A DNA stretch of 53,681 nt, from NCBI GenBank assembly GCA_020632155.1, contig JACKGE010000003.1, positions 1 to 53,681 of the forward strand, in the 5' to 3' direction. The position numbers and the translations under genes are program-made. Of the stretch, positions 38,023 through 38,139 are shown piece by piece. This stretch comes from Candidatus Nomurabacteria bacterium (GTDB lineage: Bacteria; Patescibacteriota; Minisyncoccia; Phycocordibacterales; UBA918). A model generated the notes under the pieces. That model made no database searches. It was not told the origin of the DNA and was given only the letters and a program-made list of their open reading frames with translations. Each line of letters begins with the position of its first letter. Position 1 is the first letter of the stretch.

Positions 38023-38139
38023 TTAACCCTCACAACTCACACACGTAGATTCACCATTGTTGTGGACGCGCAAGCGTGATGCTGCTGGACCGTCTACTAC
38101 TGGTAAATCGAAGTCGAAGTTAACATCATTTTTATTCAT
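38023..38139 (-). CDS. Unannotated 38-aa peptide ending in CVSCEG
   Basis: MNKNDVNFDFDLPVVDGPAASRLRVHNNGESTCVSCEG*. TGC-TACAAT lies 9 nt upstream and a terminator follows. The tail resembles that of the 35181 glutaredoxin. Confidence 0.75.
   Translation of the reverse strand: MNKNDVNFDFDLPVVDGPAASRLRVHNNGESTCVSCEG

What the first reader, a model, noticed from the sequence alone, without database searches (positions are those of the whole stretch)
38023..38139. Unannotated 38-aa CxSCEG peptide matching the tail of a nearby glutaredoxin
Seen: a complete mini transcription unit (TGC-TACAAT, ATG, ORF, UUCG terminator) below the ORF-track cutoff. It encodes ...ASRLRVHNNGESTCVSCEG. The glutaredoxin-like gene 2.5 kb away ends ...APKVKVHTTGQTCESCE, the same (R/K)h(R/K)VH..G..TCxSCE motif. 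Established: flexible C-terminal CxxC tails of class I/II ribonucleotide reductases shuttle electrons from glutaredoxin or thioredoxin. Inference: a free-standing redox-shuttle or metal-binding peptide that also exists as a glutaredoxin fusion.
Basis: partly seen in the sequence, partly recalled or inferred. Interest (0 to 1): 0.68.

Follow-up and report, generated by a model that had tools for sequence, protein, structure and literature searches.

The report
Cysteine-tailed mini-protein shared with a glutaredoxin
The 38-codon ORF is a real, conserved, unannotated gene for a tiny disordered protein, found in hundreds of ultra-small (CPR) bacteria and in phages, whose cysteine-pair tail also ends a nearby glutaredoxin, so it probably acts as a detachable thiol "arm" for that enzyme.

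Summary
On the minus strand, 38139..38023 encodes MNKNDVNFDFDLPVVDGPAASRLRVHNNGESTCVSCEG. Its end matches the tail of the glutaredoxin (Grx) at 35486..35181. A profile of 82 foreign Grx tails scores the small ORF best of 1989 six-frame ORFs (E=4.5e-8; next unrelated ORF E=1.6).

It belongs to a large undescribed family: 425 protein clusters, mostly 32-50 aa, with no Pfam, NCBIfam, PHROG or PDB match. Members share an acidic box (FDFDLPEV) and a C-terminal module KPR(V/I)H-x5-7-C-x-(S/A)-C-E-G-stop. dN/dS is 0.05-0.47.

In 15 of 17 bacterial loci a -10 box ends 6-9 nt before the ATG, which implies a leaderless mRNA. An intrinsic terminator follows in most.

Members occur in Patescibacteria, in phage contigs beside terminase and portal genes, and in a Novosphingobium prophage. 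AlphaFold predicts the Grx tail and the free peptide to be disordered.

Some Grx carry box plus tail. In four lineages the peptide gene lies upstream in the Fpg/Grx/HPF block, and there the Grx tail is lost, degenerate or atypical.

Best reading, inferred and not shown: a flexible dithiol arm serviced by the Grx, in cis or in trans. A ribonucleotide reductase link is untested. Metal binding is the main rival.

The parts
38149..38176 (-). Promoter-like site: -35-like CTCACA (38176..38171), 16-nt spacer, extended -10 TG (38157..38156) and TACAAT (38154..38149). The -10 ends 9 nt before the ATG, which implies a leaderless or near-leaderless mRNA.
   Evidence: only promoter-like hit in 37850..38400; a -10 box 6-9 nt upstream of the ATG recurs in 15 of 17 homologous bacterial loci; no Shine-Dalgarno sequence.
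38023..38139 (-). 38-aa ORF plus stop: MNKNDVNFDFDLPVVDGPAASRLRVHNNGESTCVSCEG. Member of a new mini-protein family.
   Evidence: Purifying selection. AF2 predicts no fold (pTM 0.17).
38095..38118 (-). Acidic/aromatic box F8-D-F-D-L-P-V-V15 (family consensus DFDLPEV; F10 and L12 are conserved in at least 90%).
   Evidence: Alignments.
38026..38076 (-). C-terminal module R22-L-R-V-H-N-N-G-E-S-T-C-V-S-C-E-G38. Family consensus is KPR(V/I)H-x5-7-C-x-(S/A)-C-E-G-stop. C33 and C36 are invariant; P23, R24, H26, S35, E37 and G38 are conserved in at least 90%.
37950..37993 (-). Intrinsic terminator: 15-bp stem (8 GC pairs), TTCG loop, T-run. It starts 30 nt after the stop codon.
   Evidence: Comparable hairpin plus T-run after the stop in most other loci (read by eye).
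35181..35486 (-). Glutaredoxin / GST-N (Grx2-like) gene, 101 aa. It has a CPFC active site, the QVPYL cis-Pro loop and the YESxDI motif.
   Evidence: Pfam GST_N_3 65.9 bits and Glutaredoxin 52.5 bits. NCBIfam GrxB-type hits. AF2 pLDDT 80-91 for residues 1-80.
35184..35246 (-). Disordered Grx tail (residues 81-101), ...SGEAADAPKVKVHTTGQTCESCE. This is the cis copy of the module. It is atypical: no Pro and no terminal Gly.
   Evidence: 20.9 bits; pLDDT below 50 for residues 81-96.
34576..37930 (-). Syntenic block downstream of the peptide gene: YkuD L,D-transpeptidase (37930..37031), Fpg/MutM (37015..36131), PEBP (36108..35491), Grx-tail, DUF167, HPF/S30AE (34938..34576). Parts of the block, or all of it, recur in relatives.

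Best explanation
SHOWN. The ORF is a real protein-coding gene for a 38-residue mini-protein that AlphaFold predicts to be intrinsically disordered. It belongs to a large, unannotated family found in Patescibacteria (CPR) chromosomes and in phages.

Family members carry two short conserved elements. One is an acidic/aromatic box (DFDLPEV). The other is a C-terminal 16-17-residue module, KPR(V/I)H-x5-7-C-x-(S/A)-C-E-G-stop.

The same module forms the disordered C-terminal tail of a CP[FY]C glutaredoxin of the GST-N/Grx2 type. In this lineage that Grx gene lies in the same conserved gene block as the peptide gene.

The sequence implies that the gene has its own extended -10 promoter, is transcribed as a leaderless mRNA, and ends at an intrinsic terminator.

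INFERRED. The module is a flexible dithiol/disulfide arm. Its CxxC pair exchanges electrons with the Grx active site. This happens in cis when the module is fused to the Grx and in trans when it is a free peptide. The acidic box would then serve as the docking element that replaces the covalent link.

The arm would carry reducing equivalents to a client that is not yet identified. Ribonucleotide reductase is one candidate; oxidative-damage or stress proteins encoded in the same block are others.

Phages would carry their own copies to plug into the host Grx/thiol system.
For: The motif match is non-random.

Family size and conservation: 67 hits among 1.84 billion representative proteins, about 55 of them free-standing or with other small N-terminal domains, 32-86 aa. 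There are 425 clusters at E<=0.01. Both Cys are invariant in 104 peptides and in 84 Grx tails.

dN/dS is 0.05-0.47 in all informative pairs, for example 0.086 at dS 0.48.

The Grx domain is a confident thioredoxin fold while the tail is disordered. The peptide is predicted to be unstructured. That is the expected behaviour for a mobile arm or a short linear motif.

Grx active sites are overwhelmingly CPFC or CPYC, the classic dithiol redox motif.

Fusion ('Rosetta stone') evidence: P0080 and P0087 are Grx plus acidic box plus tail.

Synteny: the peptide gene lies upstream of the Grx gene in the window, L051, L053 and L018.

Complementary pattern. Where the free peptide is in the block, the Grx tail is absent (L053), reduced to one Cys (L051, L018) or atypical (window). 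Three lineages with a canonical cis tail (L006, L007/8, L054/55) have no free peptide within about 7-10 kb on either side.

His is occasionally replaced by Q, S, Y or F while the Cys never change. This fits a redox pair better than a His-Cys2 metal site.

Precedent for mobile C-terminal Cys pairs reduced by Trx or Grx: the RNR large subunit (PMC4078304, found).
Against: There is no biochemical or expression evidence. No RNA runs were available.

AF2 does not dock the tail onto the Grx domain.

A plain redox pair does not explain the strong conservation of P-R-(V/I)-H or of the terminal E-G.

Phage copies sit beside terminase, portal and head genes, or among replication genes, and no Grx was seen in the phage loci fetched (about 6 kb either side).

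In another clade (7 of the loci compared) the peptide sits near xerC-like, M23, gltX and murG genes with no Grx in the loci fetched.

Two lineages have a tail-less Grx and no peptide in the DNA available.

The complementary pattern rests on only 7-9 lineages and is not statistically significant.

The client is unknown.
Confidence: 0.4

Rival explanations
1. Metal-binding knuckle or clasp. His plus the CxxC pair (possibly with the Glu or the C-terminal carboxylate) bind Zn, Cu(I) or Fe. The site would be completed by a partner protein, a second copy, or the Grx CPFC. It could serve as a metallochaperone, a zinc-thiolate redox switch, or an inter-protein zinc clasp.
For: The three most conserved side chains are H, C and C. 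The H-to-C spacing varies (5, 6 or 7 residues), as in a loop between ligands.

C-x-(S/A)-C-E-G looks like the second knuckle of zinc ribbons. For example, the window's own Fpg ends ...KIRVAGRGTHYCPKCQK.

P0060 is a Grx with a longer tail carrying CxxC...C...CxxC. P0185 and P0275 carry an N-terminal CxxC-CxxC ribbon.

Grx-like UXX-star selenoproteins with a reactive residue near the C-terminus are suspected metal binders (PMC13188914).
Against: His is replaced by Q, S, Y or F in several members that keep both Cys.

There are only three candidate ligands.

There is no significant similarity to zf-FPG_IleRS, zf-dskA_traR or any PDB chain.

AF2 builds no hairpin or knuckle despite a 104-sequence alignment.
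Confidence: 0.22
2. Portable docking or targeting tag. The module is a short linear motif that binds a conserved hub protein. It can be appended to any cargo (Grx, DUF6527, small phage domains, zinc ribbons) or expressed alone as a competitor or regulator. Phages would use it to hijack or block that hub. The Cys would serve recognition or covalent capture, not electron transfer.
For: The module sits at the extreme C-terminus of unrelated N-terminal domains. It is disordered.

It occurs in phage packaging, head and replication modules and in a proteobacterial prophage. This suggests a widely conserved target.

The strongly conserved P-R-(V/I)-H is typical of recognition motifs.
Against: No candidate hub emerges from gene neighbourhoods.

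The invariance of exactly two Cys in CxxC register, and the preferred fusion partner being a thiol oxidoreductase, both point to thiol chemistry.
Confidence: 0.17
3. RNR-specific version of the first reader's idea. The module is the C-terminal Cys-pair tail of ribonucleotide reductase relocated to the Grx or to a free peptide. It would enter the RNR active site to re-reduce it.
For: The analogy is with RNR large-subunit tails reduced by Trx or Grx (PMC4078304). Phages often carry dNTP-synthesis helpers (own knowledge). The extreme C-terminal position of the CxxC resembles eukaryotic R1 tails (own knowledge).
Against: No RNR gene is in the window or in any of about 50 fetched loci. There is no sequence match to any RNR chain in the PDB. 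Whether the RNR of these genomes lacks its own tail could not be checked.
Confidence: 0.1
4. RiPP or peptide-derived cofactor precursor. The acidic box would act as a leader recognition element, like the FNLD box of class I lanthipeptides, with a PR cleavage site and a Ser/Thr/Cys-rich core. Alternatively it would be a PqqA/MftA-like conserved core.
For: The size, the two-part layout and the Ser/Thr/Cys content of the last 13 residues fit. The C-terminal part is more conserved than the rest, as in cofactor precursors (comparison from own knowledge).
Against: No maturase, RRE protein, radical-SAM enzyme, dehydratase or transporter is conserved next to the gene in any lineage. The 'core' is also the tail of a folded enzyme.
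Confidence: 0.05

Closest known systems
C-terminal Cys-pair tails of ribonucleotide reductase large subunits (NrdA/R1, some NrdJ)
   Same: A flexible extreme-C-terminal segment with two Cys, re-reduced by thioredoxin or glutaredoxin, that acts as a mobile shuttle (PMC4078304).
   Different: Here the tail is on the reductant (Grx) or free, not on RNR. It has a conserved PR(V/I)H element and a fixed CxxC-E-G end. No RNR is nearby and there is no sequence similarity.
Redox or metal-shuttling C-terminal tails of flavoprotein disulfide reductases (mammalian TrxR ...GCUG; MerA ...CCAG) - own knowledge
   Same: A reactive Cys/Sec pair two to four residues from the C-terminus on a disordered arm. The arm swings between an internal redox centre and an external client.
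   Different: Those pairs are adjacent, and the host is a large flavoenzyme. No free-standing peptide form is known.
UXX-star glutaredoxin-like (seleno)proteins (NCBIfam NF041212, NF041114, NF041211)
   Same: A small Grx-like domain with a reactive residue three positions from the stop (U-x-x-stop, compared with C-E-G-stop here). Function is unknown, possibly metal or redox (PMC13188914).
   Different: The window Grx scores 34.6 bits against a cutoff of 66, and the match stops at residue 58. There is no Sec. The module here is longer and also exists as a separate gene.
E. coli Grx2 / GST N-terminal domain (PF13417, PF00462)
   Same: The Grx domain itself: thioredoxin fold, CP[FY]C, cis-Pro loop VP, and the ES motif of the glutathione site.
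   Different: The helical GST C-domain is replaced by a 20-residue disordered Cys-pair tail.
Zinc-ribbon second knuckles (Fpg/Nei zf-FPG_IleRS; DksA/TraR C4 fingers) and archaeal C(P)XCG zinc-finger micro-proteins (PMC10716476)
   Same: A short strand, turn and C-x-x-C-(E/Q) at a C-terminus. Very small proteins.
   Different: There is only one CxxC plus a replaceable His. There are no significant profile matches and no predicted hairpin.
RiPP and cofactor precursor peptides (class I lanthipeptide leaders, PqqA, MftA) - own knowledge
   Same: 30-45 aa, with a conserved N-proximal box and a conserved C-terminal segment.
   Different: There is no linked maturase. The same segment is a tail of a folded enzyme. 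The gene is a solitary leaderless unit.

Membership tests
Glutaredoxin / GST N-terminal domain (applies to the 35181..35486 gene) | Profile match above the curated cutoff, and a thioredoxin fold with a CxxC/S active site and a cis-Pro loop | tested here: met
   PF13417 65.9 bits (cutoff 22) and PF00462 52.5 bits (cutoff 22.9). CPFC at residues 10-13 and QVPYL. AF2 beta-alpha-beta-alpha-beta-beta-alpha fold, pLDDT 80-91.
UXX-star Grx-like (seleno)protein (NF041212) | Score above the curated cutoff, including the C-terminal U/C-x-x-stop region | tested here: not met
   34.6 bits against a cutoff of 66. The aligned region ends at residue 58 of 101.
RNR C-terminal redox tail | The Cys pair is the C-terminus of an RNR catalytic subunit | tested here: not met
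   The module is on a 101-aa Grx or a 38-aa peptide. No RNR domain is in the window or the loci.
RNR C-terminal redox tail | The tail re-reduces the RNR active-site disulfide and is reduced by Trx or Grx | not testable with these tools
   Needs an enzyme assay.
RiPP / peptide-cofactor precursor | A co-localised, co-conserved maturase or recognition (RRE) protein | tested here: not met
   Immediate neighbours differ between lineages. Only housekeeping synteny is conserved.
RiPP / peptide-cofactor precursor | A post-translationally modified or cleaved product | not testable with these tools
   Needs mass spectrometry.
C4 zinc ribbon / zinc finger (zf-FPG_IleRS, zf-dskA_traR) | Four metal ligands in two knuckles, and a profile match | tested here: not met
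   There is one CxxC plus one His. No Pfam hit at E<=1. Fpg ORFs are not hit by the tail HMM.
Leaderless mRNA gene | The transcription start is at, or within a few nt of, the start codon, and there is no Shine-Dalgarno sequence | tested here: inconclusive
   The -10 box ends 9 nt before the ATG here, and 6-9 nt before it in 15 of 17 loci. No TSS data are available because no RNA runs were found.
New mini-protein family (acidic box plus KPRVH..CxSCEG module) | Both conserved elements, a length of about 33-50 aa, and the module at the extreme C-terminus | tested here: met
   The window peptide aligns over its full length, 51-63% identical to its closest members. It scores 58 bits (E=3.5e-10) against the family profile.

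The most novel reading that the evidence does not exclude
The module is a gene-encoded substitute for a low-molecular-weight thiol. Its C-terminal -Cys-Glu-Gly-COO- contains the three residues of glutathione, in a different order. It would occupy the conserved glutathione site (VP loop, ES motif) of a Grx2/GST-N-type glutaredoxin in bacteria that are thought to make no glutathione (own knowledge; not checked here). On this reading the free, leaderless 38-mer is a ribosomally made, diffusible dithiol cofactor or S-thiolation agent. The Grx recycles it, and phages bring their own copy to reprogram the host thiol economy.
Probability: 0.1. Interest if true: 0.9.

Novelty: new variant of a known kind. 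Interest (0 to 1): 0.72.

Why it matters
CPR/Patescibacteria make up a large share of bacterial diversity, have tiny genomes, and their redox biology is almost unknown.

This is a widespread, strongly conserved, autonomously transcribed 38-aa gene that annotation pipelines miss or mis-start. It is tied to one of the few thiol oxidoreductases these cells keep, by fusion, by synteny and by an apparent reciprocal-loss pattern. It is also carried by phages.

If the module is a mobile dithiol arm that works in cis or in trans, it would be the first free-standing example of the 'swinging Cys-pair tail' principle known from RNR, TrxR and MerA. It would also give a concrete, testable handle on how glutathione-less ultra-small bacteria move reducing equivalents, and on what their phages need from them.

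At the least, it defines a new small-protein family and a new Grx subfamily that deserve models in Pfam and NCBIfam.

Tried and rejected
Searches that led nowhere:
- The word-index search with the 59-aa ORF found only itself.
- The diverse alignment A3 could not seed a locus scan. I switched to the closer set A4.
- Literature string searches for the motif, and for CPR glutaredoxins or small proteins, gave nothing relevant.
- No RNA-seq runs were available for the window or for L013.
- Rfam has no family in the region, so it is not a riboswitch or sRNA.
- Pfam, NCBIfam and PHROGs have no model for the peptide.
- The PDB gave nothing significant. The single E=0.32 hit (4o47, VHGGGASCISCE) lies in an unrelated 332-aa chain and is taken as chance.
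- tblastn of a consensus peptide against cultured phages found nothing.

Ideas rejected:
- HD-domain and 167-aa upstream genes as partners. They are neighbours only in near-identical contigs. The 166/168-aa genes next to the peptide in L009 and L010 are unrelated.
- The ORF as a remnant of a duplicated Grx gene. No Grx-like sequence lies upstream, and the acidic box and promoter are conserved family-wide.
- RiPP precursor: no maturase.
- Homology to the Fpg or DksA zinc finger: a look-alike only, not significant.
- Correlation between tail presence and loss of the second active-site Cys: none was convincing (8 of 72 tailed against 1 of 17 tail-less).
- PHROG annotation of the phage genes flanking the peptide: uninformative.

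Full report
**1. What is at the coordinates**

The ORF lies on the minus strand. The ATG is at 38139, the TAA stop is at 38025..38023, and it encodes 38 aa: MNKNDVNFDFDLPVVDGPAASRLRVHNNGESTCVSCEG.

An in-frame ATG at 38202 gives a 59-aa ORF. Gene callers chose that version in five near-identical activated-sludge contigs.

The glutaredoxin-like gene is 35486..35181 (-). It is 101 aa and ends KVKVHTTGQTCESCE. Pfam and NCBIfam place residues 1-80 in the Glutaredoxin / GST_N_3 / Grx2 group, with a CPFC active site.

**2. Is the resemblance more than chance?**

In all six reading frames of the window, the string C.SCE occurs only at these two sites. Both are at ORF ends and both are preceded by VH..G.

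Of 119 Grx homologues from other organisms, 82 carry a tail with consensus (K/R)PR(V/I)H-x5-C-x-(S/A)-C-E-G-stop.

I built an HMM from those 82 tails with the window's own sequences excluded. It scores the small ORF at 29.6 bits (E=4.5e-8), the best of 1989 six-frame ORFs. The window's own Grx scores 20.9 bits. The next ORF has E=1.6.

**3. A large, undescribed family**

A profile of the tails was run against 1.84 billion representative proteins. It returned 67 hits at E<=1e-3.
- About 55 are 32-86-aa proteins without a Grx domain that end in the module.
- About 10 are Grx fusions.
- Two are spurious repeat proteins.

A profile of 36 free peptides found 425 clusters at E<=0.01 among 5.8 billion proteins. 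All are 'hypothetical' or unnamed, and none has a Pfam domain.

Most free peptides share a second element, an acidic/aromatic box (D/E)FDLPE(V), 8-20 residues before the module. The window peptide has it as FDFDLPVV.

In 104 aligned peptides, C33 and C36 are invariant. M1, F10, L12, P23, R24, H26, S35, E37 and G38 are each conserved in at least 90%.

The His-to-Cys spacing is 5, 6 or 7 residues (82, 37 and 30 cases). The ending is CEG in 140 of 150.

His is replaced by Q, S, Y or F in a few members. The Cys never change.

No Pfam, NCBIfam, PHROG or PDB entry matches the peptide.

**4. Is it a gene?**

Pairwise dN/dS between loci is well below 1.
- L015/L016: 0.086 at dS 0.48.
- L013/L020: 0.067.
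- All informative pairs: 0.05-0.47.

Homologues are 33-43 aa and start a few residues before the acidic box. This fixes the start at 38139.

The scan finds a CTCACA-16 nt-TG-n-TACAAT promoter whose -10 ends 9 nt before the ATG. It also finds a 15-bp-stem, TTCG-loop terminator 30 nt after the stop.

In 15 of 17 homologous bacterial loci, a -10 box (TATAAT, TAAAAT, TATACT and similar, mostly TG-extended) ends 6-9 nt before the ATG. There is no Shine-Dalgarno sequence, and a hairpin with a T-run follows the stop in most of them.

The family is therefore built as a solitary, apparently leaderless transcription unit. No transcriptome data could be found to confirm the start site. Rfam has nothing in the region.

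**5. Where it occurs**

The GTDB scan found loci in Kaiserbacteria, Nomurabacteria, Paceibacteria, other Patescibacteria MAGs, and one Novosphingobium aquae contig.

- The Novosphingobium locus (L019) is a prophage with integrase, Erf, SSB, RusA and replication-initiator genes. It has low local GC. Its version of the protein is 91 aa, with an extra N-terminal domain.
- The IMG/VR scan found eight viral loci. PHROGs confirm these are phages. The gene lies just upstream of the large terminase (L028), or between portal and head genes (L025-27). In L021 it is fused to a DUF6527 protein ahead of terminase and portal.
- Cultured phages have the DUF6527 domain but not the tail.
- L052 is another phage-like region, with RecT, a PD-(D/E)XK nuclease and a methylase.
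- The Grx-tail gene itself is essentially absent from IMG/VR.

**6. Structure**

AlphaFold2 with an 84-sequence alignment gives a confident Grx fold for residues 1-80 (pLDDT 80-91). The tail is disordered (pLDDT below 50 for residues 81-96).

With a 104-sequence alignment the free peptide has no fold (pTM 0.17). There is only a helical turn at C-x-x-C.

The module behaves as a flexible arm or a short linear motif.

**7. Link between the peptide and the Grx**

(a) Fusion. P0080 and P0087 are Grx + acidic box (MDDSFLDNVKV) + tail, that is, Grx fused to the whole peptide.

(b) Synteny. The block Fpg-(PEBP)-Grx-(DUF167)-HPF-...-fmt/def-...-MurA-like-MreB is deeply conserved. The peptide gene lies upstream in that block in four lineages:
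- window: pep-YkuD-Fpg-PEBP-Grx
- L051: pep-YkuD-C39-x-Fpg-PEBP-Grx
- L053: pep-x-Fpg-Grx
- L018: pep-x-Grx

Partial versions are pep-Fpg in L011 and pep-YkuD in L037.

(c) Complementary states.

| Locus | Grx tail | Free peptide in the fetched DNA |
|---|---|---|
| window | atypical (no Pro, no final Gly, 20.9 bits) | present in the block |
| L051 | one Cys left (KVRVHNVGKTCGND) | present in the block |
| L018 | one Cys left (VQLHRSIHVCDPVE) | present in the block |
| L053 | absent | present in the block |
| L006 | canonical | none within about 7-10 kb either side |
| L007/8 | canonical | none within about 7-10 kb either side |
| L054/55 | canonical | none within about 7-10 kb either side |

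Two tail-less Grx lineages show no peptide in the limited DNA available. The sample is small, so the pattern is suggestive only.

In a second clade the peptide sits at a different conserved position, near a xerC-like recombinase, an M23 peptidase, gltX and murG. Its immediate neighbours there are variable.

No maturase-like or other candidate partner gene is consistently adjacent anywhere.

**8. Interpretation**

Shown:
- a real, conserved, autonomously organised mini-gene
- a two-element disordered peptide
- the same C-terminal module in cis on a CP[FY]C Grx
- phage carriage

Inferred: the invariant CxxC on a mobile tail attached to, or genomically linked with, a dithiol oxidoreductase is most simply a dithiol/disulfide arm serviced by that enzyme. 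This is the principle known from RNR large subunits (PMC4078304), TrxR and MerA. In the free form the acidic box would dock the arm in trans.

The replaceability of His argues against an obligatory His-Cys2 metal site. Even so, metal binding remains the main rival (probability 0.22). A generic docking tag comes next (0.17).

The specific RNR idea is untested. No RNR gene is in the window or in any locus fetched (and the locus tables). The RiPP reading is unlikely because there is no maturase.

The client of the arm, and the reason phages place the gene in packaging or replication modules, remain unexplained.

**9. Comparison and novelty**

The Grx domain is an ordinary member of the Grx/GST-N family. 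The tail and the free peptide belong to no described family.

- The nearest functional analogues are the C-terminal Cys-pair arms of RNR, TrxR and MerA.
- The nearest architectural analogue is the UXX-star Grx-like selenoprotein group. The window Grx fails that model's cutoff (34.6 against 66 bits).

I rate the finding a new variant of a known kind (a mobile Cys-pair arm) with an unprecedented free-standing, phage-borne form.

The most novel reading not excluded is a gene-encoded glutathione surrogate: -Cys-Glu-Gly-COO- presented to a conserved glutathione site. I give it p about 0.1.

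Noticed in passing
window 34576..37015, and loci L006, L007, L051, L053, L054, L056, L058: Gene order Fpg-(PEBP)-Grx-(DUF167)-HPF/S30AE-...-fmt/def-...-(HTH-)MurA-like-MreB is conserved across diverged Paceibacteria-like genomes, whether or not the Grx has the tail. A Grx directly ahead of a ribosome hibernation factor may be an operon.
   Followed up: partly
window 28769..29911 (+) and 29743..30018 (+): The HTH_3 + EPSP-synthase-like (MurA-like) ORF is 380 aa here, against 500-503 aa in relatives (L051, L053, L054). 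After about residue 250 the translation looks out of frame, and a second ORF overlaps. This may be a frameshift, a pseudogene or an assembly error.
   Followed up: partly
window 39533..43615: A redox cluster divergent from the peptide side. It contains: an FAD/NAD oxidoreductase with a Thr/Pro-rich C-terminal region; an ApbE flavin transferase; a ferric-reductase-like membrane protein; a 233-aa protein ending in an extreme acidic/His run (HHDEEEEEYEDDEDERHHEDDDDEEEDDD); and DsbB. In L051 a DsbB gene also lies just upstream of the peptide gene.
   Followed up: partly
window 22001..27045 (-): A 913-aa VirD4/TraG/HerA-like coupling ATPase lies next to a 768-aa protein with no Pfam match. A similar T4SS-like gene follows MreB in L053.
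   Followed up: no
L019 (Novosphingobium aquae NZ_JBBHJY010000009.1), 5824..6096: A prophage (integrase, Erf, SSB, RusA, replication initiator, HNH; local GC 0.42-0.58) in an alphaproteobacterium encodes a 91-aa protein with a small N-terminal domain, the acidic box and the module. The module is therefore not confined to CPR.
   Followed up: partly
L021 5620..6066 and L045: The module is fused to a DUF6527 domain (phrog_3362). In cultured enterobacterial and Erwinia phages this domain is annotated 'putative ammonia monooxygenase', and those copies lack the tail.
   Followed up: partly
proteins P0143, P0149, P0154, P0168, P0172, P0242, P0261-P0264 (58-86 aa): A recurrent small N-terminal domain (...T.P.G....V....(Y)H..L...GY.Y...) is fused to the module, sometimes without the acidic box. 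It has no Pfam or PHROG match.
   Followed up: partly
protein P0060 (119 aa): A Grx homologue whose tail is longer and Cys-rich (C..C-x10-C-x8-C..C-Q). It may be a full metal-binding variant of the module.
   Followed up: no
window 34949..35278 (-): The DUF167/YggU ORF, as listed from its TTG start, overlaps the Grx 3' end by 98 nt. The Pfam match begins at residue 35, so the real start is probably downstream.
   Followed up: no
L052 11251..12258: A phage-like region (RecT, PD-(D/E)XK/FtsK-like protein, methylase, exonuclease) carrying the peptide also encodes an unusually long (335-aa) peptide deformylase homologue.
   Followed up: no
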